Position numbers and translations under genes: made by a program. The notes under the pieces were generated by a model. The model was not told where the DNA came from. It was given only the letters and a program-made list of their open reading frames with translations, and did not search any database. DNA of 64,000 nt. Source: a bacterium (lineage in GTDB: Bacteria; Acidobacteriota; Blastocatellia; HR10). Shown here in pieces: positions 3,500-54,926 of the stretch. How positions within the stretch are numbered: the first letter of the stretch is position 1; each line of letters opens with the position of its first letter. The stretch covers positions 160,229 to 224,228 of the forward strand of contig JBEPZV010000001.1 of assembly GCA_041640655.1 (NCBI GenBank), in the 5' to 3' direction.

Positions 3500-4876
3500 A
3501 TGGCGTCGGGGGAGCACCGATCCGAGGCGTACTTCGAACCGCAGTGGGAGTTGATGCCGCGCGAACAGCTCGAGGCCGTGCGGCTGCAGAAGTTGCACCG
3601 GCAACTCCGCTACGCGTACGAGGCGTCGGCCTTCTACCGGGAGAAGTTTCATCAGGCGGGGGCGCGCCCCCAGGACATCCGCACGCTCGAGGATCTCCGC
3701 CGGTTGCCGATCTTCATCACGCCGGAGATTCATCGGGAGAGCCAGGAGCAGTCGCTGCGCGAGGAGGGACATCCCTTCGGGATGTTCCTCTGCGCGCCCC
3801 CGGAGCAGGTCATCGCCGTGGCGGCGACCTCGGGGACCACGGGAGAGCCCACCTTCTACGCCTTCACCCGACAAGATGTGGAGGTGACCAACCGCCTCTG
3901 GGCGCGCGCCTTCTGGCGCGCGGGGATCAGACCGGGCGATACGGTGATGCACGCCTTCGGCTTGAGCATGTTCCTGGCCGGAGTCCCCGTCGTCCGCGCC
4001 CTGGAATGGATGGGCGCGCGCCCCATCCCCTGCGGGGCCGAGGCCGGAAGCGAGCGCTTGCTGAAGCTCATCCGGTGGACGCGCCCGCGCGCGCTGCTGT
4101 GCACGCCCTCATACGCCGAGTATCTGATCGAGGTCGCCCCCAAGGTCCTCGGCTGCGACGTCGGCGATCTGGGCATCGAGATCATCTGCTGCGCGGGCGA
4201 GCCGGGAGCCGGATTGCCGGAGGTTCGCCGCAAGATTCAGGACGCCTACGGCGCGCGCCTCTACGATATGCTCGGGGGCGCTCATGGGATCATGAACGTC
4301 TCCTGCGAGGCCTCCGAATACCAGGGGATGCATGTCCTCGGCGATGACTTCTCCGTCTCCGACGACCTCGTGGATCCGGAGACGAAGGAGCCCATCCCCC
4401 TCACAGAGGGAGCCATCGGCGAGCGGGTGAAGACGGCACTGCAGTGGGAGGCGCAGCCGCCGATCCGATACTCCGTCGGGGACATCTATCAGGTGTTCAC
4501 CGAGCCGTGCCCCTGCGGGCGACCGGGACCGCGGATCAAGGTGCTCGGGCGCGTGGATGATCTGCTGATCGTCAAGGGCGTCAAGGTGTACCCGGCGGCC
4601 GTGAAGAACCTCGTGGAATCGTTCGGCCCACGCACGACCGGAGAGATGCGCATCGTGCTCGAGGCACCGGGACCACGGGTGACGCCCCCGCTGCGGCTGC
4701 GCGTCGAATATCGCGCTGGTCTGGAGGGCGAACAGATCGAGCGCCTCAAGGCGGAGATCGCCGAGGCTATGCACCACCGATTGCGCGTGCGCCCGGAGAT
4801 CGAGATGGTCCCCGAAGGGACGCTCCCGCGCACGGCCCATAAGACGACGCTCATCGAACGACGATACGCCAGATGA
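3500..4876 (+). CDS. phenylacetate-CoA ligase family acyl-CoA synthetase
   Basis: TSGTTGEP, GEPG, GRVDDLLIVKGVKVYP motifs. Confidence 0.9.
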   Translation: MASGEHRSEAYFEPQWELMPREQLEAVRLQKLHRQLRYAYEASAFYREKFHQAGARPQDIRTLEDLRRLPIFITPEIHRESQEQSLREEGHPFGMFLCAPPEQVIAVAATSGTTGEPTFYAFTRQDVEVTNRLWARAFWRAGIRPGDTVMHAFGLSMFLAGVPVVRALEWMGARPIPCGAEAGSERLLKLIRWTRPRALLCTPSYAEYLIEVAPKVLGCDVGDLGIEIICCAGEPGAGLPEVRRKIQDAYGARLYDMLGGAHGIMNVSCEASEYQGMHVLGDDFSVSDDLVDPETKEPIPLTEGAIGERVKTALQWEAQPPIRYSVGDIYQVFTEPCPCGRPGPRIKVLGRVDDLLIVKGVKVYPAAVKNLVESFGPRTTGEMRIVLEAPGPRVTPPLRLRVEYRAGLEGEQIERLKAEIAEAMHHRLRVRPEIEMVPEGTLPRTAHKTTLIERRYAR

Positions 4877-6540
4877 CGAACCGAACGGAGAAGATCCTCA
4901 CGCTCGCCGAAGCCGTCCGGCAGATCGAGGACGGGAGCACGATCGCCCTCGGCGGTCTCTCCTACTTCAACGCGCCAATGGCGCTGGTGCGCGAATTGAT
5001 CCGCCAGCGAAAGCGCGGGCTGACGGTGATCACCTCCGCCGTGACGGGCCTGCAGGCGGATCTGCTCATCGCCGCCGGAGGCGTGCGCCGGCTCATCAGC
5101 CCCTACGTGGGCCTGGAAGAGCTGGGCATGGCGCCGAATTTCCGGCGCGCGGCCGAGCGCGGGGAGATCGAGATCTGCGAGATCGGAGAGGCCTTCCTCG
5201 CCTTCGGTCTGAAGGCGGGAGCAGCCGGCGCGCCCTTCTTCCCCCTCCCTCGCGCGCTCGCCCGCACGGATCTCGTTCGGGTGAATACCGACTATCGCTT
5301 CACCCGAGACCCATTCACCGGCGAGGAGGTCCTCTGCGTGCCGGCGCTTGTGCCCGATTGGGCGCTGCTGCACGCGCAGCAGAGCGATCCGTTCGGAAAC
5401 GCGCGCCATCTCGGATCGGCTTACATGGACCTGCTGTTGGCGCGCGCCGCGCGCCGCTGTATCGTGAGCTGCGATGAGGTGATCCCTCAAGAGGCCGTGC
5501 GCGCGGAGCCGCAGCGCACGACGCTGCCGGCAGTTCTCGTGGACCACGTCGTCCCGCTCTTCGGGAGCGCGCATCCGACGGCGAGCGAGCCGCTCTACGA
5601 TGTGGACCGCGAGCACCTGCGGCTCTATCTCGAACTCAGCCGGACGCCCGAAGGCGCGGCGCAATATCTCCAGGAATTCGTGCGCTCCTCCGACGAATCG
5701 GCGTATCTCCAGAAGGTGAGGGGGACTGCGCAGGTCTCCGCATCCCGAGTGGAATCGACCGCGTGCGAACCCGAGGAAGCGCCGCCATCGGTCGGAGAAC
5801 TCTTGGCCATCATCTTCTCGCGCCTGGTCGAGGATGGGGACGTCGTGGGCGTCGGCACGGGATGTATGGAGGTCGCGGCCGGACTTCGATTGGCGCAGCT
5901 CACACACGCTCCCAACCTCTCCTTCATCATGGGCGGAACGGGGGCGCTCAATCCGGACGCGGAGGAGTTGCCCCCCTCGGTGAACTCGGCGCGGGCGATC
6001 TCCCGAGCCGAAGCCGTGCTGCGGCTGGAGGATCTGTTCGATCTGGAGCTGAAGGGCGATCTCGATGTGATGTTCCTGAGCGGCTTGCAGATTGATCGGC
6101 ACGGGAACGTGAACCTCGTGGGCATTGGTCCGTGGTCGGCACCGCGACGCCGAGGGCCGGGAAGCGTGGGATTGGAGCTGGCTCCCCGCGCGCGACGCCG
6201 CGTGGCCTTCTTCCGTCGGCACACGCGCCAGATCTTCGTCGAACGGGTTGATTTCATCTCGGCCCCGGGTTATGTTCCCCAGGTGATCGAAGGCGGAGCC
6301 TACTGGGTCATCACCGATCTGGCCGTGATGGATTTCGATGACGAGGGGCGAATGCGGCTGGCCTCCCTCCATCCCGGCGCGACGGTGGAGCAGGTTCGAG
6401 AGCGAACGGGCTTTGAACTCCTCATCCCGGCCTCGGTGCCGACGACGCCACCGCCGACGCACGAGGAGCTTCACTTGTTACGCACCCAGGTGGACCGCCG
6501 AGGGCTCCTGCGGGCGGGTCCCCGCATGGGGTGTCCGTGA
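4873..6540 (+). CDS. fused alpha/beta CoA-transferase (glutaconate CoA-transferase/IpdAB-like)
   Basis: N-half EAVRQIEDGSTIALGG...APNFRRA; C-half GLQIDRHGNVN, VDFISAPG, ITDLAVMDF. Confidence 0.85.
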   Translation: MTNRTEKILTLAEAVRQIEDGSTIALGGLSYFNAPMALVRELIRQRKRGLTVITSAVTGLQADLLIAAGGVRRLISPYVGLEELGMAPNFRRAAERGEIEICEIGEAFLAFGLKAGAAGAPFFPLPRALARTDLVRVNTDYRFTRDPFTGEEVLCVPALVPDWALLHAQQSDPFGNARHLGSAYMDLLLARAARRCIVSCDEVIPQEAVRAEPQRTTLPAVLVDHVVPLFGSAHPTASEPLYDVDREHLRLYLELSRTPEGAAQYLQEFVRSSDESAYLQKVRGTAQVSASRVESTACEPEEAPPSVGELLAIIFSRLVEDGDVVGVGTGCMEVAAGLRLAQLTHAPNLSFIMGGTGALNPDAEELPPSVNSARAISRAEAVLRLEDLFDLELKGDLDVMFLSGLQIDRHGNVNLVGIGPWSAPRRRGPGSVGLELAPRARRRVAFFRRHTRQIFVERVDFISAPGYVPQVIEGGAYWVITDLAVMDFDDEGRMRLASLHPGATVEQVRERTGFELLIPASVPTTPPPTHEELHLLRTQVDRRGLLRAGPRMGCP

Positions 6541-7967: not shown

Positions 7968-9123
7968 GAGCCTCAAGGACAGAGTGGCCATCATCGGGAT
8001 CGGTTGCACGAAGTTCGGCGAGCTGCACGAGAAGAGCCTTCAAGACCTGATGGTCGAGGCGAGCTTCGCCGCTTACGCGGACGCGGGGATCGAGCCCGAT
8101 CGCGTGGAAGCGGCGTGGCTGGGAACGTTCTCACCGGGTTTCGGGGGAGGGAAGGCGAGCGTCACCCTGGCCGACGCGCTGCGACTCTATGGCAAGCCGA
8201 TCACCCGCGTGGAGAACTACTGCGCCACGGGGACCGATGCCTTCCGAAACGCGTGCCTGGCCGTGGCCGCCGGCGTCTACGAAGTGGCCTTGGTCGTCGG
8301 AGCGGAGAAGTTGCGAGATCGGCCCGTGCGGGGATTGCAACGCGAGGGGACGCATCCGTACTTGGAAGCGGGCTCGACCCCACCGGGACTTTTCGCCCTG
8401 GCAGCGAATCGGTATTTCCATCGCTTCGGCGGGGATCGGCGGACGTTGGCCAAGGTCGCCGTCAAGAATCATCACAACGGAGCCCTCAATCCGAAAGCCC
8501 ATTTTCAGATGGAGGTGACCGAGGAGCAGGTCCTCAACGCGCCGCTCATCGCCTATCCGTTCGGTCTGTATGACTGCTGCCCCACGACAGACGGAGCCGC
8601 GGCCGTCATCATCTGTCGGGCCGATCTGGCGCGGCAGTTTCGAGACGATCCGGTCTACGTGAAGGGCATCGGATTGGCCGTGGAGACGGGATGGCCTTTC
8701 TTCGATCCCACGTTCGAGTACATCGGGTTCCCGGCGACGACGGCGGCGGCGGCCGAAGCCTATCGCATGGCGGGAATCCGCCACCCGGCGCGGGAGATCT
8801 CCGTGGCCGAAGTGCATGATTGTTTCACGTGGACCGAGATCGCCAATTATGAGGACCTGGGCTTCTGTCGGAAGGGCGAGGGGAGGTACTTCATCGAGGA
8901 GGGACGGAGCGCGCTCACGGGCGATCTGCCCGTGAATCCGAGCGGCGGATTGAAATCGTTCGGCCATCCGATCGGAGCCAGCGGCGTGCGCATGCTCACG
9001 GAGATCGTCCTGCAGTTGCGCGGTCAAGCCGGAGCTCGCCAGGTGAAGAACGCCGAGCTGGGACTCGTGCATAATCTGGGCGGACCCGGCTCGGTCGCCT
9101 GCGTCGTCATTCTCGGACGGTGA
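7960..9123 (+). CDS. thiolase family protein (SCP-x/Ltp/PhlC-type acetyl-CoA acetyltransferase)
   Basis: VENYCATG, CCPTTDGAAA, EVHDCF, NPSGGLKSFGHPIGASG. Confidence 0.9.
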   Translation: MGESLKDRVAIIGIGCTKFGELHEKSLQDLMVEASFAAYADAGIEPDRVEAAWLGTFSPGFGGGKASVTLADALRLYGKPITRVENYCATGTDAFRNACLAVAAGVYEVALVVGAEKLRDRPVRGLQREGTHPYLEAGSTPPGLFALAANRYFHRFGGDRRTLAKVAVKNHHNGALNPKAHFQMEVTEEQVLNAPLIAYPFGLYDCCPTTDGAAAVIICRADLARQFRDDPVYVKGIGLAVETGWPFFDPTFEYIGFPATTAAAAEAYRMAGIRHPAREISVAEVHDCFTWTEIANYEDLGFCRKGEGRYFIEEGRSALTGDLPVNPSGGLKSFGHPIGASGVRMLTEIVLQLRGQAGARQVKNAELGLVHNLGGPGSVACVVILGR

Positions 9124-9168
9124 ACATCGTTCGGGCAACCCCGCGGGGGATCCCTGAAGGAGTCGAGG

Positions 9169-10020
9169 ATGCGTATCGTCGTCTGCCTGACGCAGATTCT
9201 CGATCCGGAGATGCCGCCGAGTGAATTTCGACTGGATCCGCAACGAAAGGCGGCCGCCGAGGGGATCGGACAGCTCGTCGTCAGCATCTTCGATGAGAAC
9301 GCGCTCGAGGTGGCGCTGCAGGTGCGCGAGCGCATAGCCGAGCGCGAGGGAGCACCCCACGCGATCTCTCGATCGCGTGAGGACCCCGGCCCGGTGGAGA
9401 TCGTCGCGCTCACCGTCGGTCCTCCTTCGGCCGCCGACGTCCTGCGGAAGGCGCTCAGTCTGCGCGCCGATCGCGCCATTTTGATCTCCAGCGAGGGATG
9501 GCCTCCGCTGGAAGGCGCCATCGTCGCCCGCCTTCTGGCCGCCGCCGTGAGACGGCTCCATCCGGTGGACCTCGTGCTCTGCGGGCGCGAGACGGGAGAT
9601 TGGCATGGGGGACAGGTCGGCGCCTTCCTGGCCGAAGCGCTCGGATGGGCGAGCGTGAGCTTCGTCTCCCGCATCGAGGTGGAGGGGGAGACCTTCCTCA
9701 TGCGACGCCAATCGGACGAAGGATGGGAGATCGTGCGCGCGAGACGACCCGCCGTGGCGACGATCACCAACGATGAGACGAACGTCCCGCGCTTGCCGAA
9801 GGTCAGAGATACGATGCTGGCCGCCCGCGCGTCGCTCCCCGTGTGGACGATCCCGGAACTGGTCGAAGATCCGAGAGAGCTGTGGCAGGCGAATGCCCTG
9901 CAGGTGCGCGAGTTGTTCATTCCGAGCAGCTCGAAGGCGTGCGAGGTGATCGAGGGGGAGACGGTTCAGGAGAAAGCCGTTCGGCTTCTCCAGGCGCTGC
10001 GCCGACGACGGATTCTCTGA
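9169..10020 (+). CDS. etfB: electron transfer flavoprotein beta subunit (carries an in-frame palindromic insertion)
   Basis: FDENALEVAL, DLVLCGRETGDWHGGQVG, PRLP motifs. Confidence 0.9.
   Translation: MRIVVCLTQILDPEMPPSEFRLDPQRKAAAEGIGQLVVSIFDENALEVALQVRERIAEREGAPHAISRSREDPGPVEIVALTVGPPSAADVLRKALSLRADRAILISSEGWPPLEGAIVARLLAAAVRRLHPVDLVLCGRETGDWHGGQVGAFLAEALGWASVSFVSRIEVEGETFLMRRQSDEGWEIVRARRPAVATITNDETNVPRLPKVRDTMLAARASLPVWTIPELVEDPRELWQANALQVRELFIPSSSKACEVIEGETVQEKAVRLLQALRRRRIL
9350..9389. repeat. palindromic element copy inside etfB
   Basis: gagcaccccacgcgatctctcgatcgcgtgaggaccccgg; 36/40 match to the 14782 copy. Confidence 0.85.
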
Positions 10021-10040
10021 GCTGAGAGGAGGACGTCCTC

Positions 10041-11036
10041 ATGCGCACCGTGATGGTTCTCCTGCCGACATCCCGCATCGAGCGGGCCGAGCGCGAGGCC
10101 ATCGGCGCCGCGCGCGCGTTGTCGCGGGAATGGTCGGCGAACGTGCAGGTGGCCCTCATCGCCCCAACGGCGGAGGGAATCGAAGGCCTCCGAGGGAGGA
10201 CGGAGGCCTCTGGAGATGTGCGCCTGTGGATCGCCGCCCATCCGCAGCTGGCGGCGTATTCGCCCGAGCTGTATGTGAGCGCCAGCGAACAGCTCATCAC
10301 ACGCGCGCGACCGGACGTGATTGTCTTCCCCAGTCGGACGATCCCGCTTGAGATCGCGCCGCGTCTCGCATACCGGATCGGGGCGGCGATGGCGACCGAT
10401 GTCATCGAGCTGCGCGCCGAGGATGAGACCGTCCGCATCACGAAGCCCGTCTACGGCGGCAAGGCGCACGCGGTGTTGATGGCGCAACGGTTCCCCCTCG
10501 TCCTCTGCGTGCGCCCGCGCGCGTTCGATCCGTTTGAGGGGGAGCTGCGCGACGATGCGGCGATGCGCGTCCAGGTGACGCTCGATCCCTCGTCCGTCCG
10601 CACGCAGCTCGTCCGACGGATTCAAGAGGACGCCGCGGCGGGAGTGTCGCTCGAAGAGGCGCGCGTCATCGTCAGCGGCGGGCGCGGCCTCGGCGGACCC
10701 GAGGGCTTCCGATTGCTCGAAGAATTGGCGCGGTGGCTCGGCGGCGCCGTCGGCGCTTCGCGCGCGGCGTGCGACGCCGGGTGGGTGCCGGCCAGCTGGC
10801 AAATCGGGCAAACGGGAAAGAAGGTCGCCCCCGATCTCTATATCGCCGTCGGGATCTCCGGAGCCAGCCAGCACATCGTCGGCATCTCCGGGGCCAAGTG
10901 CATCGTCGCCATCAACACGGACCCCAAAGCGCCGATCTTCACAGTGGCGGATCTCGGGATCGTCGGCGATTATCGAGCGGTCGTCCCCGCTCTGATCGCG
11001 GAGGTCAAACGGATGCGTGAGGAAGCAGAGGGATGA
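10041..11036 (+). CDS. etfA: electron transfer flavoprotein alpha subunit
   Basis: [34 protein letters not shown]. Confidence 0.95.
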
Positions 11037-11074
11037 ACGCTTGAACGCGACGAGACCTTCTGGGAGGACGCGAC

Positions 11075-11872
11075 ATGAGTGAGCCGACGGTGCAGCTTGT
11101 CGTGGACGATGGCGTGGCCACGGTGACGCTCAACCGGCCCGAGGCGTTGAACGCTATTGACGCGACGTTGGCGGCCGAGTTGCGCGAGGTCTTTCGAACG
11201 TTGGGAGCGCGAGAGGATGTTCGGGCCGTGATCCTGACGGGAGCGGGACGGGCGTTCTCGGCGGGTGCGGATTTGAAGTACCTTCACCGGAGATTGGAGG
11301 AGGGCGCTTCGGCCGAACAGTTGCTGGACGAGTTGCTCGGGCCGTTGAACGATACAATTCGACTCATTCGGGGCATGCCGAAGATCATCATCGCGGCCAT
11401 TCACGGGGTCGCCAGCGGTGGCGGCTGTAACCTCGCGCTGGCGTGCGATTATCGGGTGGCGGCTGTGGGGACGCGGTTCAACCAGGCGTTCGTGCGACTC
11501 GGGATCGCTCCGGATTGCGGAGGGACGTTCATTGTGCCGCGCCTGATCGGCTGGACGAAGGCGTTCGAATGGATGGTGAGTGGAGCGTTGATCGAGGCTG
11601 AGGAGGCGGCCGCCTGGGGACTCGTGCATCGCGTCGTCCCCGAGGATCGCGTGCTCGAAGAGGCGCGCGCCTTCGCGCGCTCCGTGTGCGAAGGGCCGAC
11701 ACGAGCGATCGTGACCATCAAACACTTGCTCGCGATGAGCCTCGGAGCCTCCCTGGATGAGCAGCTGGAGCGGGAGCGGCAGCTCGTGGGCTTGCTCGCC
11801 GGCACCGAGGATTTCCGCGAAGGCGTGCGCGCCTTCCTCGAGAAGCGCCCCCCGCGCTTCTCCGGGCGATGA
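11075..11872 (+). CDS. enoyl-CoA hydratase/isomerase family protein
   Basis: LNRPEALNA, AFSAGADL, GGGCNLALACD, DFREGVRAFLEKR. Confidence 0.95.
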   Translation: MSEPTVQLVVDDGVATVTLNRPEALNAIDATLAAELREVFRTLGAREDVRAVILTGAGRAFSAGADLKYLHRRLEEGASAEQLLDELLGPLNDTIRLIRGMPKIIIAAIHGVASGGGCNLALACDYRVAAVGTRFNQAFVRLGIAPDCGGTFIVPRLIGWTKAFEWMVSGALIEAEEAAAWGLVHRVVPEDRVLEEARAFARSVCEGPTRAIVTIKHLLAMSLGASLDEQLERERQLVGLLAGTEDFREGVRAFLEKRPPRFSGR

Positions 11873-11886
11873 CGCGTCGCCCCGAT

Positions 11887-11932
11887 CCTCCCGGGGTCCC
11901 CACGCGATCCGGAGATCGCGTGGGGTGCCCGA
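11887..11932. repeat. palindromic element, intergenic copy
   Basis: Perfect 12-bp stem ccccacgcgatc (11898-11909)/gatcgcgtgggg (11914-11925) with cgga loop. Confidence 0.9.
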
Positions 11933-11951
11933 ACTCCCCGAACGGAGGACT

Positions 11952-12908
11952 ATGTCGAGCGCATTCGAATTCGTTCCCCCCGGTCTCGATCTCGCCGATG
12001 ATGACATCCATCCCATCGGTCCGGAACCCTGGTGGCGCGAGGCCTGGTACTTCGAATTCTTCGACCCGGCTTCGCGCGTTCAGTTCCAGGTCTATCAAGG
12101 CATCTTCCCGAACGCCGGTCGAGGGGATCTGACCTGCTACGTGTTCGTGGAGGGACGCCTGCGATACGAGCTGATGAAGATGGACTTCGCGATTCCGTCC
12201 GACATCGGGCGGGAGCGCTTGTGCTTCGGCCCCTTGAAATTAGAGATGCTCGAGCCCTTCGTCCGATGGCGCTTGCGCTACGATAGCCCGAGGATGCAGT
12301 GCGATCTCTCCTTCCGCGCGCTCCATCGCGCCTTCAGTTGGGCGGAGACCCGGCTCTGGATGGAAGACGCTCCGGTCGGGCAGCAGAGCCGCCATTTCGA
12401 TCAGGTGGGATGGTACGAGGGATGGCTGCATCTGGATGACGAGCAGCTCTCCATCTCGGCGATCGGGATGCGCGATCGGATGTGGGGGTGGGGAGGGCGC
12501 GCTCTCTGGCGCGGGTATCTGGTCCTGTGGGCGCCCTTCTCCGAAGCCTTCGTCGTCAATGTGGCGGCCATGAACTTCGCCGACGGTCGACGCCACCTCT
12601 GCGGATATCTCCATCGCGAGGGCGAACGCACCTATCTCGACTCCGCGCGCCTGACCATCACCTGGAGCGAGCAGCGATGGAAGTCGGTCGAACGTGTGCA
12701 CGCGCAGCTCACCGATCGGCGCGGGCGGTCGCTCGCGCTCTCGGCCCGACCGCTCGGCATCATTGATACATCGCATCATTGGCCGCACCGATTCGATCAC
12801 CTCCTCTTCTCCATCGGCGAATATGAGTGCCAGGGGATGACCGGCTACGGATGCCTGACGTGGAGCTTCGTCACGGCGGAGGAGAAGATGCGCGCCATCG
12901 AGTTCTGA
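11952..12908 (+). CDS. hypothetical protein, AttH/CrtC-like all-beta hydratase/cyclase fold (tentative)
   Basis: WWREAWYFEF, HFDQVG, GMRDRMWG patterns; RBS GGAGG before ATG 11952. Confidence 0.55.
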   Translation: MSSAFEFVPPGLDLADDDIHPIGPEPWWREAWYFEFFDPASRVQFQVYQGIFPNAGRGDLTCYVFVEGRLRYELMKMDFAIPSDIGRERLCFGPLKLEMLEPFVRWRLRYDSPRMQCDLSFRALHRAFSWAETRLWMEDAPVGQQSRHFDQVGWYEGWLHLDDEQLSISAIGMRDRMWGWGGRALWRGYLVLWAPFSEAFVVNVAAMNFADGRRHLCGYLHREGERTYLDSARLTITWSEQRWKSVERVHAQLTDRRGRSLALSARPLGIIDTSHHWPHRFDHLLFSIGEYECQGMTGYGCLTWSFVTAEEKMRAIEF

Positions 12909-12932
12909 GAGGCGAAGCTCGGAGACGTGGCC

Positions 12933-14144
12933 ATGAAGTCGACCGACCTCACCGGGATCCTCCCGCGATCTCTCGATCGCGTGGCGTGCCTGAACGCGCT
13001 GCTCCATCGGTTCGGGGAGAGCGTCCGTCACTTCTTCCGCGCCGAGCAACGCTCGCACCTGTTCTCCCCCCTCTTTCATCTCCCCGGGCGATTGATCGCG
13101 GGGAGCTATTGCTACTACGAGCACCTGGTGCCCTTGTTGCGACAGGTGGCGCGACAGATGCCGCCGGAAGCCCTCGCGCATCGGGTGAAGCGACTCGGGG
13201 CGCGACCCAACGAGATCAACGCCAATTCTCTGCTGCTCGGGTATCTGAACGGGCGGGAGCAGCGGCGGCTGCTCGGCCATCGCGTGGCAGATGATCCGGA
13301 GGAGATCGCCTTCCTCCTGGACTTCTGGGCGCGCTTCCTCGCCGCCTATCGCGCCGATGGTCGGCTCTTGCCGGAGGAGAGCGGATTCGTTCTGCCGGTG
13401 CTCGAAGCGCGAGCGCTCGAAGTGCTCCTGCCGGAACTCCATCCGGAACCGGAGCACGCACGACGCCAGCGAGGTCCCCATGTGATCGGGAGATCGCGTG
13501 GGGTGCCCGAGCGGATGCGTCGCGCCCTGGCCACGCTCGAGCTCTTCGCCTTCGTCTTCAACGGCGAGGCGCGCGTCGGCCTCTTTCACCACGGGCCCTA
13601 TCCCCGACCCGACGGCACGTGCGTGCTCGTCAAGGAGCTGGTGGGGTTGCAGGACGATTTCTATTCCTGGGCGGAGGAGTCCGTGCGACTCCCCGTGGCC
13701 CATGTGGCCTGCCTCTTGCTCGTGAAGGACGTCGAAGTGAGAATCGGTTTATTCGGATCGCTCCGGACGGAGCCCCGGGAGTACGCTCAGAACGTCGTGG
13801 CCTGTGGCCTCTTCACCGCCACGGGGGAAGACGTTCGTCCTCTCACGCTCGAGGAGCTGGAGGAGATCGCCGCGCACGCGGCTGAGGCGCAGATGCGCCT
13901 CTATCGCCACTTCCTCACATGGGATGATCGGCGTCGCATCGCCTATGGAGCGGAGCTCTACGGGAACCTGCTGCGCGTCTTCGGCGATCAGGCGGGACTC
14001 GGGCCGGATTTCCATCGGGAGATCCGAGAGCGCTTCCGGGAGAGCACGGACCGACATCTACAAGCCATACTCGCTGGCGAGCCTCCGGCCATCCTGCGGC
14101 ATATCGCGGAGACGGCGGGAGAGATCTACAGCCCCCTCGCATGA
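12933..14144 (+). CDS. hypothetical protein, paralog 1 (carries an in-frame palindromic insertion)
   Basis: Long ORF in operon; shares DDPE-I-F-LDFW, YR-DG-LLPEE, ATLEL-AF---GE, LF-HGPY with the next gene. Confidence 0.8.
   Translation: MKSTDLTGILPRSLDRVACLNALLHRFGESVRHFFRAEQRSHLFSPLFHLPGRLIAGSYCYYEHLVPLLRQVARQMPPEALAHRVKRLGARPNEINANSLLLGYLNGREQRRLLGHRVADDPEEIAFLLDFWARFLAAYRADGRLLPEESGFVLPVLEARALEVLLPELHPEPEHARRQRGPHVIGRSRGVPERMRRALATLELFAFVFNGEARVGLFHHGPYPRPDGTCVLVKELVGLQDDFYSWAEESVRLPVAHVACLLLVKDVEVRIGLFGSLRTEPREYAQNVVACGLFTATGEDVRPLTLEELEEIAAHAAEAQMRLYRHFLTWDDRRRIAYGAELYGNLLRVFGDQAGLGPDFHREIRERFRESTDRHLQAILAGEPPAILRHIAETAGEIYSPLA
13470..13510. repeat. palindromic element copy inside paralog 1
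   Basis: 37/41 identical to 11892-11932. Confidence 0.85.
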
Positions 14145-14156
14145 AGACCGGGTCGG

Positions 14157-15386
14157 ATGAGGCGCATGACCCTCGAGGAGATCAATCGCCACATCCGGCT
14201 GATCGCGGAACAGCTGAAGGCGTTCATGCGCTCGGAGCAACGCGCGCTCCTGCGATCGGCGCTTTTTGACGTCCCCCGCCGCTCCTCGCTCGGATGGGAA
14301 TGCCTCTACCGCACGGCCTATCCGCTGCTGGCGGACCTCACGTCGGTCGTCACGCCTGAGGAGATCGGACGCCGGATGAAGCGCGTGTGCGCGCGCCCGA
14401 ATTTCCTCACGCTGAGCATTCTGATCTGCTGCTACCTCGGGGGACGCCAGCAGCGGATCCTCGATCTCGGCGTGCGACCGGGAGAGCCCTTCCCCGAGGA
14501 TGATCCCGAGCAGATCGGCTTCGTCCTCGACTTCTGGTGGCGCGTCTGCCGCACCTATCGCGAGGATGGTGCCCTCTTGCCGGAAGAGCGAGGAGGGACG
14601 ATGCCGATCCTGCCGGCCGGAACGATCGCTCGACTCCGCGCGCTGCTGGTCGAGACGGATCCGCTCACGGTGAAACGCCTTCGTCGTCTGGCGGCGACGC
14701 TGGAGCTGTACGCGTTCATCCTGCACGGGGAGCAACGCGATGGCCTCTTCGCGCACGGCCCGTACGCGCTGCAGGAGCGGGCGGGCACCCCACGCGATCT
14801 CCGGATCGCGTGGGGACCCCGGGAGGTGCTCGTCATTCGCGAGTTCACCGACCTGCAGAACAGTTATCTCCCCTGGGCGCAGACGCGCGCGCGGAACCTC
14901 TACCCGAATCTGGCGCTCGCGCTCCAGCTTCGGGACGTGACGGCTCAGTTCGATCTCTTCGGAGGGGTGCGATTCGATCCCCCGGAATATGCTGATCGCG
15001 TTCGCGCCGTCGCGTTGGTGACCGTGGCCGACAATGGGGAGATCCGAGCCGTCCCTTTCGAGGAGATCGAGGAGATCGAACGCCGCGCGGCCGACGCCCA
15101 GATGGAGCTGTATCAACGCGCGCTCTGCTGGTCGCCGCGCTTCAAGATCGAATACGGCCTCTACCTGTTCGCGAACCACGTGAAGGCGTTCTTCGATCTG
15201 GCGGGGGTGGAGGCGGGCGAGCGCATTCGTCGGGCGTTCGAAGAGGCCGCCGCTCCGTTCCTGCAGCGGTTGCTCGCCGATGCCGAACCACCATTCATCT
15301 GGCGGTTCATGGCGACGACAGAAGGCGATTTCTTCTATCCGATCTCCGCGCAGATGCCCGAACGTGAGGGAGGAGAGGGGCGATGA
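14157..15386 (+). CDS. hypothetical protein, paralog 2 (carries an in-frame palindromic insertion)
   Basis: Collinear similarity to 12933..14144; stop overlaps the start of the next gene. Confidence 0.8.
   Translation: MRRMTLEEINRHIRLIAEQLKAFMRSEQRALLRSALFDVPRRSSLGWECLYRTAYPLLADLTSVVTPEEIGRRMKRVCARPNFLTLSILICCYLGGRQQRILDLGVRPGEPFPEDDPEQIGFVLDFWWRVCRTYREDGALLPEERGGTMPILPAGTIARLRALLVETDPLTVKRLRRLAATLELYAFILHGEQRDGLFAHGPYALQERAGTPRDLRIAWGPREVLVIREFTDLQNSYLPWAQTRARNLYPNLALALQLRDVTAQFDLFGGVRFDPPEYADRVRAVALVTVADNGEIRAVPFEEIEEIERRAADAQMELYQRALCWSPRFKIEYGLYLFANHVKAFFDLAGVEAGERIRRAFEEAAAPFLQRLLADAEPPFIWRFMATTEGDFFYPISAQMPEREGGEGR
14782..14826. repeat. palindromic element copy inside paralog 2
   Basis: Exact 45-nt reverse complement of 11887-11931. 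Confidence 0.9.
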
Positions 15387-17539
15387 GAGAGGAGAGCCTC
15401 TTGATGGTTCACCAGCAGGAGCCGCTTGGTCAGAGCGAGCCCGCTCGGGAATACTCCTGCGCTGTGGATACGGGGGGGACGTTCACCGACTGCGTCGTCG
15501 GCGATTCGGAGGGGAATCTGGTCTTCGCCAAGAGCCCCTCGACGCCGCACGATTTTTCGGCGGGCTTCTTCGCCGCACTCGCCCTGGCGGCGGAGCAGCT
15601 TGGGCTCACGCTCACCGAACTGATGGCGCGCACGCGACGGCTCATGCACGGGACGACGGTGGGCACCAACGCCATGGTGGAGCTCAAAGGGGCGCGCGTG
15701 GGGTTGATCACGACGCGGGGGCATGGGGATGCCATCCTCATCATGCGCTCGGTGGGCCGCTCGGCGGGATTGCCGATCGAGCGGTTGCTGCATGTCTCCC
15801 GTCATCAGAAACCCCGGCCCCTCGTCCCCCGCCACCTCATTCGCGAGGTGAGCGAACGCGTGGACTGGCGCGGCGAGGTCATCGTGCCTCTGAATCGAGA
15901 AGAGGCGCGTCGCGCCATCGAGGAGTTGCTGGAGCAGAAGGTCGAGGCCATCGCCATCGCCTTCCTCTGGGGATTCGTGAATCCCATCCACGAGCGCGAG
16001 GTTCGCCGCATGGTCGAGGAGATAGCGCCCGACCTCTTCGTCACCTGCGCGCACGAGTTGATCGCGAAGCCGGGCGAGTATGAGCGGACGGCGGCGACCG
16101 TGATCAATTGTTTCATCGGGCCGAAGACGACGCAGTACATCCGCCGGGTGGAAGAGCGGGCTCGCGCGCTCGGCTGCACGGCTCCCCTCCTCATCATGCA
16201 AGCATCAGGTGGCGTCGCGCCGGCCCGGGAGATCCTGCGCGCGCCGTTGTTCACCATCGGCTCGGGGCCGGCAGGGGGCTTGATGGGATGCCAGTTCCTG
16301 GCCGAGACCCTCGGACATCCCCACGTCATCGCCACGGACATGGGGGGGACGAGCTTCGACGTCGGCCTCATCGTGGACGGGATGCCGCTGTCGGCGTCCG
16401 AGACCACACTCGAGCAGTACACCTTCTTCATGCCTCGCTTGGACATCCTCTCCATCGGCGCGGGCGGAGGATCCATCATCTGGATCGATGAGCGGAGCGG
16501 AACCCTGAAAGTCGGTCCGGAATCAGCGGGGGCAGACCCGGGACCCGCCTGCTACGGACGCGGAGGCACACGACCCACGGTGACCGATGCGGACCTCATC
16601 CTCGGCTATTACAATCCGGAGTTCTTCCTGGGGGGGAGGCTGACGCTCAATCCTGAAGCGGCTCACCACGCGATGCGCACGGTCGCCGACCCCCTCGGGT
16701 TGGACATCACCGAGGCGGCCGACGGAGCCACGCGGATCGTTGAGATGCAGATGGCCGATCTCATCCGGCAGATGACCATCCAGCGGGGATACGATCCGCG
16801 CGATTTCGTCATCTACGCCTACGGCGGAGCCGCCGGCGCCCATGCGGCTGTCTACGCGCGGGAGTTGGGATGCCGCACGGTCGTCATCCCGCGCGGAGTC
16901 CTGGCCGCCACCTGGTCGGCCTTCGGGATCCTCTCGACGGATGTCCAGCACGTCTTCGAGAGATCGGAGCTGCTCATCGCACCCCTGGATGCGACGCGCG
17001 TCACGGAGATCTTCCTCGAGCTGGAAGAGCGAGCCCGCCGACAATTGTGCGAGGAGGGGGTGGCCGAGGATCAGATCCTCCTGCGCCGCTTCGCGGAGAT
17101 GAAGTTCCGACTGCAGATCCATCGCGTCGAGATCCCCGTCCCCGGTGGGATTCTGACCGATCAGGACATGCGCGATCTGGAGCAGGCATTCGTACAAAAG
17201 TACGAGACGCTCTATGGACGCGGATCGGCATTCACGGCGGCGGGCATGGAGATCGGCCTGCTGCGCGTGGTGGCGCTCGGGCGCATCGCTCGCGGGCCGT
17301 TGAAGCAGCTCTCCACCGAGCACCGCAGCGGATGGACGCCCGTCGGACGGCGCCAGGTCTACTGGCGGGAACTCGGACGACGGATTCAAACGCCCATCTT
17401 CTCCGGGGAAGGGATCCCCCCTGAGACATCTCTGGAGGGTCCGGCGATCGTCGAACTGCCCGTGACGACCATCGTCGTCCGCCCGGGCGACCGCCTCACC
17501 ACCGATGCATATGGGAATTTCATCCTCACCCTCCCCTGA
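15383..17539 (+). CDS. hydantoinase/oxoprolinase A family (ATP-binding; acetone/acetophenone carboxylase-like)
   Basis: DTGGTFTD, HGTTVGTNA, DMGGTSFDV, SIGAGGGS, GPESAGADPGPACYG. Confidence 0.95.
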   Translation: MREESLLMVHQQEPLGQSEPAREYSCAVDTGGTFTDCVVGDSEGNLVFAKSPSTPHDFSAGFFAALALAAEQLGLTLTELMARTRRLMHGTTVGTNAMVELKGARVGLITTRGHGDAILIMRSVGRSAGLPIERLLHVSRHQKPRPLVPRHLIREVSERVDWRGEVIVPLNREEARRAIEELLEQKVEAIAIAFLWGFVNPIHEREVRRMVEEIAPDLFVTCAHELIAKPGEYERTAATVINCFIGPKTTQYIRRVEERARALGCTAPLLIMQASGGVAPAREILRAPLFTIGSGPAGGLMGCQFLAETLGHPHVIATDMGGTSFDVGLIVDGMPLSASETTLEQYTFFMPRLDILSIGAGGGSIIWIDERSGTLKVGPESAGADPGPACYGRGGTRPTVTDADLILGYYNPEFFLGGRLTLNPEAAHHAMRTVADPLGLDITEAADGATRIVEMQMADLIRQMTIQRGYDPRDFVIYAYGGAAGAHAAVYARELGCRTVVIPRGVLAATWSAFGILSTDVQHVFERSELLIAPLDATRVTEIFLELEERARRQLCEEGVAEDQILLRRFAEMKFRLQIHRVEIPVPGGILTDQDMRDLEQAFVQKYETLYGRGSAFTAAGMEIGLLRVVALGRIARGPLKQLSTEHRSGWTPVGRRQVYWRELGRRIQTPIFSGEGIPPETSLEGPAIVELPVTTIVVRPGDRLTTDAYGNFILTLP

Positions 17540-51304: not shown

Positions 51305-51929
51305 TTGGGAAAATCATTCCGTACGGGCGACGGTCTCCGGCCGTCCCCCATCGGCGGGGGGGACGGCGAGACCTCCGTACAGCGGCCCGCGCTCTTAACA
51401 GGGAAGCGGAATTGTGGGATCGTTCAAATCCCACCTGCTCTCTCAACGCCTTGCGGGGCGCCCCACGGGGACCCTCTCTGACGACGGAACTCTACGCCTC
51501 ATTCGCAGCGAAGACTCTCTCCGCCGCCTCTGTAGCTCGGATTGCGGCGCCGGCATCCGACCGGCTCGGCGCGAATCCTGGGGAAAGGCCAGGCTCATCT
51601 CGCCGCCCGTCCGGCTAAAGGTGAGGGACGTTTTGTCCACATCACCGGGAGCATCAAAGTCGGGAGCGTATCGGCGACGCCGCTGCCTGGCGGTGATTCG
51701 AGACGGGCGACCGGCCGGATCCTCACCGAACCTTCGGATCCAGGAAGGCCAGCCGATTGTCTGCGGCGATCACCGCCAGTCGCCCCGTGGACGAGCGGGT
51801 GAGGGAAACGGCCGCCCCCCCCGTGCTCACCCGATCCCGCTCCTTCCCCTCCAGATCGTAGGTCACGACCGCTCCGTTCACGAGAAAACAGCGTGACGCG
51901 CGGATCTCGCATTCGTTTGAGGCCACGCC

Positions 51930-54618: not shown

Positions 54619-54770
54619 GGAGCCGATGGTGTGTCGTTGTCCCTTCCTTCTGTGCGAGGAGCCCGTCCCCGGTTCGTGGCAGCCCGCTGCCTGCCCACGA
54701 GTGAGGACCGCGCCGTCCGTGGGTCGGTGGGATTCACCGAGGCCGGAGTCAAGCGGTGCGCTGTGCTGCT

Positions 54771-54809
54771 GGGCACCCCGCGCAATCTCCCGATCACGTG
54801 GGAACCCCG
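54771..54809. repeat. palindromic element, diverged intergenic copy
   Basis: gggcaccccgcgcaatctcccgatcacgtgggaaccccg; 34/39 match to the 14782 copy. Confidence 0.75.
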
Positions 54810-54926
54810 TAGGGTCGAGGATCGCCTGAATGCGCAGGCGGTGCGGCACGCCTTCAGGACGATCAACCGGGGGCTACTCGGCCGGCCCCGAGCCAACGCC
54901 TCACCTGTCCTGGAGAGAAGCACATC

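What the first reader, a model, noticed from the sequence alone, without database searches (positions are those of the whole stretch)
9350..14826. A ~45-bp palindromic element inserted in frame into three protein-coding genes, each read in a different frame (Rickettsia-palindromic-element-like)
Seen: the hairpin ggg(c/t)..ccccacgcgatc-N4-gatcgcgtgggg occurs intergenically (11887-11932, 54771-54809) and inside three ORFs: etfB (9350-9389, GAPHAISRSREDPG), paralog 1 (13470-13510, RGPHVIGRSRGVP) and paralog 2 (14782-14826, GTPRDLRIAWGPRE, an exact 45-nt reverse complement of the intergenic copy). The paralogs control for each other: each lacks the ~15-aa stretch where the other carries it. In EtfB it lies where the canonical family has a short loop. 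Core-deleted variants appear at 6516-6537 and about 51456-51474. Known: Rickettsia RPEs add peptide segments to proteins this way. Inference: a much shorter mobile palindrome is tolerated in surface loops and diversifies the proteome of this lineage.
Basis: partly seen in the sequence, partly recalled or inferred. Interest (0 to 1): 0.85.

Follow-up and report, generated by a model that had tools for sequence, protein, structure and literature searches.

The report
14-codon hairpin element inside genes
A tiny 42-letter DNA hairpin that copies itself around the genomes of one group of hot-spring bacteria lands inside genes as often as between them, adding exactly 14 amino acids to loops of otherwise ordinary proteins; the behaviour is known from Rickettsia and some REP repeats, but this is an unusually small, clean and traceable case.

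Summary
The hairpin CGGGGTCCCCAYGCGATC-N4-GATCGCRTGGGGTGCCCG occurs 5 times in the window at 3 or fewer mismatches, against 0 in shuffles, and about 31 times in the 3.1-Mb genome.

Sister genomes have clean empty sites. EtfB, paralog 1 and paralog 2 each carry an exact 42-nt (14-codon) insertion. A fourth copy lies in the N-terminal region of paralog 1.

Across three species I found 18 filled/empty pairs differing by exactly 42 nt, at coding and intergenic sites alike. Decayed copies inside genes differ by multiples of 3.

About 58% of the G000 copies lie in called genes (OpcA, Crp, FtsW and others). Most copies have no stop codon in any of the six frames. Both modelled insertions sit in low-confidence loops.

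The element was found only in one genus among the 61 relatives searched, with a few hits in unrelated MAGs. I found no Y1/RAYT or IS110 transposase, no GTAG/CGTC tag and no fixed target duplication. Neighbouring copies share loop variants, which suggests local spread.

It behaves like RPEs and intragenic REPs but is not a tested member of either. This scan has noted similar in-frame palindromes on other DNA, though not this sequence. How it moves is unresolved.

The parts
9349..9390 (-). 42-nt copy inside etfB (peptide GAPHAISRSREDPG, residues 61-74)
   Evidence: Exact 42-nt gap in G001, G003, G004 and G006. G002 keeps a 15-nt remnant. Predicted coil between helix 40-59 and strand 77-84, pLDDT block 55.
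11887..11931 (+). Intergenic copy between the enoyl-CoA hydratase gene and the DUF7064/7065 gene; 45 nt identical (reverse complement) to 14782-14826
   Evidence: DNA hairpin -20.9 kcal/mol, z -6.0. G002 has a core-deleted form at this place.
12951..12994 (+). Diverged copy in the 5' region of paralog 1 (LTGILPRSLDRVACLN if translation starts at GTG 12927 or ATG 12933); not in the original finding
   Evidence: 3 mismatches. G002 has the same copy 24 nt shorter, in frame with a conserved upstream ATG. Model residues 1-14 have pLDDT below 50. The start codon is not established.
13468..13509 (+). 42-nt copy inside paralog 1 (RGPHVIGRSRGVPE)
   Evidence: Absent from all 5 relatives in the protein alignment. 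At DNA level G002 (about 93% identical) and G003 show an exact 42-nt gap; the other relatives align only partly. Empty site GACGCC|AGCGGATG with 4-nt AGCG junction homology. Model residues 183-193 have pLDDT below 50.
14782..14826 (-). Copy inside paralog 2 (GTPRDLRIAWGPRE)
   Evidence: 42 nt absent in G001, G003 and G004. G002 has it with a 15-nt internal deletion.
54768..54811 (-). Degenerate intergenic copy
   Evidence: 4 mismatches; between called genes. Weak hairpin, z -0.48.
6516..6536 (+). Possible core-deleted short form at the 3' end of ORF 4873-6540
   Evidence: The pattern is not specific, so this is plausible only.
51456..51474 (-). Possible core-deleted short form, intergenic
   Evidence: Plausible only.
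9169..10020 (+). etfB host gene (ETF beta subunit; best solved relative CarD, 6fah_B)
   Evidence: Pfam PF01012; PDB profile search.
12927..14144 (+). Paralog 1 host gene (no Pfam family)
14157..15386 (+). Paralog 2 host gene (no Pfam family; about 40% identical to paralog 1)

Best explanation
This is a non-autonomous, selfish palindromic mini-element. Its core is 40 nt: a 4-bp outer stem, a conserved 2x2 mismatch that gives it an orientation, a 12-bp inner stem and a 4-nt loop. It is added to DNA as a unit of exactly 42 nt.

Three properties make it compatible with coding sequence. Forty-two is 14 codons. Most copies have no stop codon in any of the six frames. The G- and C-runs at both ends read as Gly-x-Pro in the consensus. 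A landing inside a gene therefore adds a 14-residue, loop-prone peptide instead of breaking the gene. Selection then keeps the copies that fall in loops, linkers and termini.

Copies decay by internal deletions, and inside genes the deletions measured are multiples of three, so the copies are read as protein.

Shown here: the insertion polymorphism, the fixed length, frame and stop neutrality, loop location in two models, the in-frame decay, the genus-restricted distribution and the local clustering.

Inferred: the element is moved as a defined hairpin, probably on single-stranded DNA, by a structure-specific enzyme acting in trans that I could not identify. It moves without a fixed target-site duplication and mostly over short distances.

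The confidence given is for the whole statement. For the shown part alone (a mobile, in-frame, tolerated element) I would put about 0.9.
For: Insertion polymorphism with clean empty sites:
- etfB, paralog 1 and paralog 2.
- 12 of 21 measured sister-genome copies differ from the G000 site by exactly 42 nt, including 4 of 6 intergenic sites.
- Three more exact 42-nt gaps around C1:57.5-58.6 kb.

Decay in frame: at coding sites the length differences were 42 (x8), 15, 15, 18, 30, 36, 39 and one 47, so 14 of 15 are multiples of 3. The two intergenic differences other than 42 were 46 and 47.

Stop neutrality: 32 of 56 aligned copies have no stop in any of 6 frames and 16 have one in a single frame. 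The consensus reads G-x-P ... G-x-P in all frames.

Coding habitat: 18 of 31 copies lie in called genes. Host genes confirmed by Pfam include OpcA, Crp/FNR, MerT-HMA, DUF3179, DUF1015, FtsW/RodA, BatA/VWA and TPR.

Loops: low-confidence coil at both modelled insertions.

Hairpin: -20.9 kcal/mol, z -6. There are 17 double-sided changes against 6.3 in shuffles, reached by 0 of 500 shuffles.

Distribution: only 4 of 61 related genomes, all in one genus, with 0 hits to the reversed control pattern.

Local spread: 21 of 31 copies lie on a contig that is 7% of the assembly. Copies within 15 kb share the loop tetramer in 26 of 76 pairs, against 59 of 582 for distant pairs, reached by 0 of 2000 permutations.

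No fixed target duplication.
Against: - No mobilising enzyme was found. PF01797 (Y1/RAYT) gave 0 of 7 genomes over the cut-off, and PF01548 (IS110) gave 0 of 7.
- TnpB genes are present in 5 of 7 genomes, but no canonical copy sits at their ends.
- No longer element uses the arms as terminal repeats.
- Three of the four element-bearing genomes are incomplete MAGs (73-90% complete; G006 is 97%), and repeats are often unassembled, so absence of an enzyme is weak evidence.
- Junctions show 0-8 nt of homology in different registers. That fits annealing-based insertion better than a clean enzymatic cut.
- Translation of the inserted peptides is inferred from the in-frame decay only.
- Gene calls outside the window come from my own crude codon-usage caller.
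- The loop-sharing signal is driven largely by one cluster in G005.
- Covariation in a palindrome can arise from template-switch correction or shared ancestry without any selection (caveat).
Confidence: 0.6

Rival explanations
1. Same element, but it moves without any transposase. New copies arise by replication or repair template switching, or by microhomology-mediated copying, from a nearby donor hairpin. The base of the stem sets the switch points.
For: - No transposase was found.
- There is no fixed target duplication, yet junction homology of 4 nt (AGCG at paralog 1; ACGG at the DUF3179 gene) and up to 8 nt occurs in different registers.
- The base at -1 equals the base at +41 in 32 of 73 copies, against 17.5 expected.
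- The paralog 2 copy shares 5 nt of flank with the intergenic copy 2.85 kb away.
- Copies cluster strongly and neighbours share loop variants.
- Loop tetramers occur in both flips: CGAA/TTCG and TCTC/GAGA.
Against: A length of exactly 42 nt in 18 independent pairs is more regular than template switching usually gives. The element with the same asymmetric ends also occurs in unrelated MAGs, which needs horizontal transfer of a donor copy.
Confidence: 0.22
2. It is an ordinary REP/REPIN family served by a RAYT (Y1) transposase whose gene was simply not assembled.
For: The size, the hairpin shape and the lack of a target duplication all fit. Intragenic REPs are documented (PMC3733652, passages read). 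Three of the four element-bearing genomes are 73-90% complete MAGs.
Against: - PF01797 was not found in any of 7 genomes, including G006, which is 97% complete and has 7 copies.
- There is no GTAG or CGTC tag next to the stem (position counts).
- Copies are mostly single, not inverted doublets.
- 58% of copies lie in genes.
Confidence: 0.1
3. The palindromes are functional sites, for example binding sites of a dimeric DNA-binding protein, or RNA stem-loops that control expression. On this view they are kept for that role and are not selfish.
For: There is a strong 12-4-12 dyad with two GATC motifs. Copies cluster regionally. Some copies sit just after genes.
Against: Positions are not conserved between species that are 85-93% identical. 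Copies decay freely. Most lie inside unrelated genes. There is no Rfam match.
Confidence: 0.05
4. The inserted segments are ancestral protein sequence lost in the relatives, or they are assembly artefacts.
For: None beyond the formal possibility. Two copies cannot be bridged by short-read contigs because they are identical 45-mers.
Against: Outgroups at several depths lack the segments. The same DNA occurs between genes. Contigs of runs from four studies carry the copies with 0 differences.
Confidence: 0.01

Closest known systems
Rickettsia palindromic elements (RPEs; Ogata et al. 2000 and 2002, known to me only as summarised in review PMC10969869, passages read)
   Same: A repeated palindromic element with copies both between genes and in frame inside unrelated genes. 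It adds a peptide that is compatible with the host fold, and about half of the copies are in ORFs.
   Different: RPEs are about 100-150 bp and encode 30-50 residues. This element is 42 nt and 14 residues. The host is a free-living hot-spring lineage with 88% coding density, not a reduced intracellular genome. Here every frame and both orientations are used. I did not compare sequences with RPEs.
Intragenic GTAG- and CGTC-tagged REPs (Di Nocera et al. 2013, PMC3733652; passages read)
   Same: Palindromes of 20-40 bp with an 8-13 bp stem and a 4-5 nt loop. Some copies lie within ORFs of known proteins. The CGTC class has no associated transposase.
   Different: - No GTAG or CGTC tag.
- No RAYT.
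- Most copies are single.
- The majority are in genes rather than downstream of them.
- A fixed 42-nt insertion is documented here by empty sites.
IS200/IS605-type hairpin ends and their gene-less derivatives (name and properties recalled, not taken from a call)
   Same: Hairpin with a conserved imperfection, no target-site duplication, and TnpB genes present in the element-bearing genomes.
   Different: No Y1 TnpA, no conserved target tetranucleotide, and no canonical copy at the TnpB element ends.
Mobile GC clusters and 'byp' elements of yeast mitochondria (recalled; search listing only)
   Same: Very short (about 30-55 nt) GC-rich hairpin elements that invade coding sequence.
   Different: As I recall them, byps are skipped by the ribosome and need not be multiples of three. 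Here the length and the decay products are multiples of three, which argues that the copies are translated.

Membership tests
REP/REPIN-RAYT | Short (20-40 nt) repeated palindrome forming a stable hairpin | tested here: met
   40-nt core, -20.9 kcal/mol, z -6; about 31 copies.
REP/REPIN-RAYT | Conserved GTAG (or CGTC) tetranucleotide at one foot of the stem (PMC3733652) | tested here: not met
   Base counts at -8..-1 and +40..+47 in 73 copies show no such tag.
REP/REPIN-RAYT | A RAYT / Y1 transposase gene (PF01797) in the genome, usually flanked by the repeat | tested here: not met
   0 of 7 genus genomes over the cut-off, while the control rang in 6 of 14 model genomes. Caveat: the element-bearing genomes are 73-97% complete.
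REP/REPIN-RAYT | Mostly extragenic, often as inverted doublets | tested here: not met
   18 of 31 copies lie in called genes. Most copies are single, with only a few adjacent pairs.
Rickettsia palindromic elements | Palindromic repeat inserted in frame in unrelated ORFs as well as between genes | tested here: met
Rickettsia palindromic elements | Unit of about 100-150 bp encoding a conserved peptide of 30-50 residues | tested here: not met
   The unit is 42 nt, or 14 residues.
Rickettsia palindromic elements | Sequence relatedness to the RPE families | not tested
   No RPE sequence was at hand. Rfam has no match to the region.
MITE of a DDE transposon | Target-site duplication of fixed length | tested here: not met
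   The best exact-duplication model fits 21 of 73 copies. Several filled/empty pairs show no duplication at all.
MITE of a DDE transposon | A full-length parent element with the same terminal inverted repeats | tested here: not met
   No solitary arms flanking a gene in G000. The assembly is incomplete.
IS200/IS605-derived hairpin element | Y1 TnpA present, with insertion 3' of a fixed tetra- or pentanucleotide | tested here: not met
   TnpB alone is present in 5 of 7 genomes.

The most novel reading that the evidence does not exclude
A hairpin element whose main habitat is coding sequence. It is 14 codons long, usually stop-free in all six frames and capped by Gly/Pro codons at both ends. It spreads mostly locally and without a dedicated transposase, by hairpin-guided template switching or microhomology-mediated copying. 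It is also exchanged between phyla that share hot springs: the same asymmetric hairpin occurs in MAGs labelled Thermoflexus and Pseudomonadota. In that case its compatibility with proteins would be the trait that lets it persist in a compact genome, not an accident.
Probability: 0.25. Interest if true: 0.75.

Novelty: new variant of a known kind. Interest (0 to 1): 0.55.

Why it matters
In-frame palindromic elements have been known since the Rickettsia work, and intragenic REPs have been listed. How transposase-less palindromes move, and why proteins tolerate them, remains open.

This family offers an unusually tractable case:
- The unit is tiny and of fixed size.
- There are many young insertions with exact empty sites in species 85-93% identical.
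- There is a visible decay series that keeps the frame inside genes.
- There is a clear signal of local spread.

It shows how a selfish DNA can add short loops to enzymes, regulators and membrane proteins in a free-living thermophile. It also gives concrete sequences for testing hairpin insertion mechanisms and the tolerance of proteins to 14-residue Gly/Pro-capped inserts.

Tried and rejected
- **Transposase searches.** PF01797 and PF01548 were not found in the genus. TnpB (PF07282) was found in 5 of 7 genomes but is not tied to the hairpin.
- **Parent element.** A search for a longer element with the arms as terminal repeats found nothing. The apparent arm pair on C2 lies inside one 1338-aa gene.
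- **Composite transposon.** A 138-aa ORF bracketed by two inverted copies (C1:57840-58561) has no Pfam family. Sister genomes show the bracketing copies are separate 42-nt insertions, not one unit.
- **Rfam.** No family matched in 9000-15500 at E up to 1.
- **Viral contigs.** No exact match.
- **RNA evidence.** No RNA holder was listed among the runs, so expression could not be examined.
- **Paralog family.** No Pfam family, no Foldseek PDB match at E of 0.001 or better, VIA-align wide best Z 5.7 on a helical part only, and no usable ESM Atlas hit.
- **Literature.** Searches for this organism label and for prior descriptions of this element found nothing. The terms were 'HRbin10', 'HRbin08', 'bacterium HR10' and 'bacterium HR08' (0 papers). 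Broader searches returned only the general RPE, REP and MITE literature.
- **Core-deleted forms.** The relaxed pattern was no better than its control, 16 against 14.

Full report
**1. Observation**

The window is G000:C1:160229-224228, in a 3.13-Mb, 128-contig, 63.7% G+C assembly. Reading the stated coordinates shows the hairpins as described.

The core CCCCACGCGATC-N4-GATCGCGTGGGG at 3 or fewer mismatches occurs 5 times in the window and never in 100 dinucleotide-preserving shuffles. The copy near 54.8 kb has 4 mismatches.

Oriented by its outer ends, the consensus is CGGGGTCCCCAYGCGATC-N4-GATCGCRTGGGGTGCCCG. It folds as single-stranded DNA into a 4-bp outer stem, a 2x2 mismatch (G.G and T.T), a 12-bp inner stem and a 4-nt loop. 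The energy is -20.9 kcal/mol, with z -6.0.

**2. The three (four) coding copies are clean insertions**

EtfB:
- Orthologues were found in all 40 relatives searched.
- In the 12-sequence alignment, G000 alone carries GAPHAISRSREDPG. Four same-genus genomes and six more distant ones lack it.
- At DNA level the gap is exactly 42 nt. The closest relative, G002 (93% protein identity), keeps a 15-nt remnant with 27 nt of the core missing.

The two paralogs:
- The mid-gene copy of paralog 1 is absent from all five relatives in the protein alignment.
- At DNA level G002 and G003 show an exact 42-nt gap; the other relatives align only partly.
- The empty site reads GACGCC|AGCGGATG, with 4 nt (AGCG) repeated at the junction. 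It is a G000-specific, recent event.
- The paralog 2 copy is absent as 42 nt from G001, G003 and G004, and G006 lacks the residues in the protein alignment. G002 has it with a 15-nt internal deletion.
- G002 also has an extra 15-nt half-element elsewhere in paralog 2.
- The 5' copy of paralog 1 is 24 nt shorter in G002. In both genomes it is in frame with a conserved upstream ATG. The true start codon is not established.

**3. Not an artefact**

Four runs from four studies hold all sampled words of the stretch around the paralog 1 insert. Some of them may be the source of the assembly.

Their contigs cover the etfB copy and both paralog 1 copies with 0 differences, and no indel variant is listed. 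Contigs end at 11887-11931 and 14782-14826 because these are identical inverted 45-mers. The reading frame and the orthologue alignment on both sides fix the orientation.

**4. Census in the genome**

- A profile of the copies finds 31 non-overlapping matches at E below 0.05. Of these, 21 lie on contig C1, which is 7% of the assembly.
- I built a crude codon-usage gene caller: 2518 genes, 87.7% coding. It reproduces the window's genes.
- By it, 18 of 31 copies lie inside genes. That is fewer than random placement would give (binomial P 3.5e-5), but far from the extragenic habit of REPs.
- Pfam confirms many hosts:
  - OpcA.
  - A Crp/FNR regulator, with the copy between the cNMP and HTH domains.
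  - A MerT-HMA protein, with the copy between domains.
  - DUF3179.
  - DUF1015, at the C-terminus.
  - FtsW/RodA, before the Pfam domain.
  - A BatA/VWA protein, with two copies.
  - A TPR protein.
  - A flavoprotein, before the domain.
  - An ECF sigma factor, after region 4.
- All three reading frames and both orientations are used in roughly equal numbers.
- Because the DNA is palindromic, there are only three peptide types: G-x-P-H-A-I..S-R-G-x-P, G-x-P-x-R-S-x-D-R-x-G-x-P and G-x-P-R-D-L-x-I-A-W-G-x.
- Of 56 aligned copies, 32 have no stop in any of the six frames and 16 have a stop in only one.

**5. Fixed 42-nt unit, in-frame decay**

I fetched parts of G002 and G005 and found 39 copies there. 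Of these, 23 had a G000 match spanning both flanks. Two of the 23 align without a gap. The other 21 were measured.

- The net difference is exactly 42 nt in 12 of 21, including 4 of 6 sites that are intergenic in G000.
- At the 15 sites inside G000 called genes the differences are 42 (x8), 15, 15, 18, 30, 36, 39 and one 47.
- The 47 lies in a weakly scoring 136-aa ORF.
- The two intergenic differences other than 42 are 46 and 47.
- Three further G000 copies (C1:57591 in a DUF3179 gene; 57840 and 58519 intergenic) are exact 42-nt gaps in G005, and the first is also one in G002.

With etfB and the paralogs that makes 18 exact 42-nt pairs. Frame neutrality is therefore a property of the element itself. 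The 3n decay products inside genes indicate that the copies are translated and not skipped.

**6. Structure context**

The EtfB model has mean pLDDT 77 and places residues 61-74 in coil between helix 40-59 and strand 77-84. The pLDDT block for residues 61-70 is 55.

The best solved relative, CarD (6fah_B), has a short turn at that place.

The paralog 1 model has mean pLDDT 80. Its only long segments below pLDDT 50 are residues 1-14 and 183-193, which are the two copies.

**7. Distribution**

- Among 61 related genomes, at 3 or fewer mismatches, only four carry the element, all of one genus. Counts are G000 20, G002 14, G005 28 and G006 7.
- G001, G003, G004 and 54 genomes of other genera have none. 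The reversed control pattern has none anywhere.
- Weak single copies in G001 and G003 appear.
- The exact core pattern in the species-representative collection gives 18 loci. They are labelled 'Bacterium HR08' (11), 'Bacterium HR10' (3), a 'Pseudomonadota bacterium' MAG (3) and a Thermoflexus MAG (1).
- The last two have flanks unrelated to G000.
- In the Pseudomonadota MAG the hairpin sits in the middle of a longer repeat of about 200 nt with its own outer inverted repeats.
- In metagenome contigs there are 74 loci. Of these, 53 have flanks alignable to G000 at 69-100% identity, 18 have none and 3 lie at contig ends.
- Viral contigs have none.
- Runs that hold the stretch are mostly labelled hot springs metagenome.

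**8. How it moves**

- No Y1/RAYT and no IS110 family gene was found in the 7 genomes of the genus.
- TnpB genes are present in 5 of 7, namely the four carriers plus G003. No canonical copy lies at their ends.
- No longer element uses the arms as terminal repeats.
- There is no GTAG or CGTC tag.
- There is no fixed target-site duplication. The best exact-duplication model fits 21 of 73 copies, and several pairs show none at all.
- There is a real excess of identity between base -1 and base +41: 32 of 73 against 17.5 expected.
- The youngest insertions show 4 nt of junction homology, in different registers. One shows 8 nt.
- Stem position 6 covaries with its partner: C-G 35, U-A 5, A-U 4 and G-C 2. 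Double-sided changes total 17 cells against 6.3 in shuffles, reached by 0 of 500 shuffles. Shared ancestry or palindrome correction could produce this without selection.
- Copies within 15 kb share the loop tetramer in 26 of 76 pairs, against 59 of 582 for other pairs of the same genome, reached by 0 of 2000 permutations. This signal leans on one G005 cluster.
- The same gene neighbourhoods (the Bat/VWA/TPR cluster; C1:45-62 kb) are hot spots in different species, but at different sites.

I conclude that spread is mainly local. I cannot decide between an unidentified structure-specific enzyme and transposase-free template switching. The enzyme is favoured by the invariant 42-nt unit. Template switching is favoured by the junction homologies, the carried-over donor flank and the missing transposase.

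**9. Comparison with what is known**

Review passages (PMC10969869) describe RPEs of about 150 bp, nearly half of them fused in frame to ORFs.

Di Nocera et al. (PMC3733652, passages) list GTAG- and CGTC-tagged REPs inside known genes. They note that CGTC REPs lack a transposase, and they argue for location in linkers and loops.

The present family works like these but fails the tested membership features of each: the tag, RAYT and extragenic habit for REPs, and the size for RPEs. I did not compare sequences with RPEs.

My literature searches found no description of this element or organism. Supplements of PMC3733652 were not opened.

Earlier notes of this scan report similar in-frame palindromes in other genomes, but none with this sequence.

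**10. Verdict**

This is a real, mobile, 14-codon palindromic element that lives largely inside genes. It is a new variant of a known kind. Interest is moderate, mainly as a clean natural system for studying how transposase-less palindromes spread and how proteins absorb them.

Noticed in passing
window 12927-15386: Two tandem paralogs of about 405 aa (about 40% identical) are conserved across the genus. They sit between a DUF7064/7065 gene and a hydantoinase/oxoprolinase gene, in an ETF, thiolase and enoyl-CoA hydratase cluster. They have no Pfam family, no Foldseek PDB match and no usable Atlas hit. The model is helical with a central beta-sheet (pTM 0.81).
   Followed up: partly
L034, L035, L040 (MAG labelled Pseudomonadota bacterium): The same hairpin, including its asymmetric outer ends, sits at the centre of a longer repeat of about 200 nt with its own outer inverted repeats. 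This is in a 67-71% G+C MAG whose flanks are unrelated to G000. One more copy is in a Thermoflexus MAG (L036). Both suggest transfer between phyla.
   Followed up: partly
G000:C1:28284-30006 (L047:8284-10006): A 440-aa TnpB (OrfB_IS605 plus Cas12f1-like TNB) gene lies next to a 6-phosphogluconolactonase gene fragment that has only profile positions 104-225. My codon-usage gene caller left the TnpB open frame uncalled. The first 82 kb of C1 holds many low-scoring and fragmented genes, for example three DUF3179 pieces at 56.7-59.0 kb, and 15 of the 31 element copies.
   Followed up: partly
window 11931 / 14776: One public contig (run X4) joins 11931 to 14776, that is, across the two identical inverted 45-mers. 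This may be an assembly-graph ambiguity or a real inversion or deletion variant of the 2.8-kb segment between them.
   Followed up: no
G000:C6:18.9-29.5 kb and G005:C124, C76 (L051, L052): The Bat/VWA/TPR gene cluster is a shared hot spot. It has 4 copies in G000 and at least 11 in G005, at different sites, almost all with the loop CGAA or its flip TTCG.
   Followed up: partly
window 9169-11036: The ETF pair is closest to the CarD/CarE type (6fah_B, E 1.6e-47), an electron-bifurcating class. A second, more distant EtfB lies on C17 (34% identity).
   Followed up: no
G000:C1:132612 and 137242: There are two identical 21-nt short forms, GGGTCCCCACGTGGGGTGCCC, which are the element without its central 20 nt or so. 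Similar short forms occur in G002 at the site of the 11887 copy. Either they are recurrent hairpin-tip deletions or they form a separate short subfamily.
   Followed up: partly
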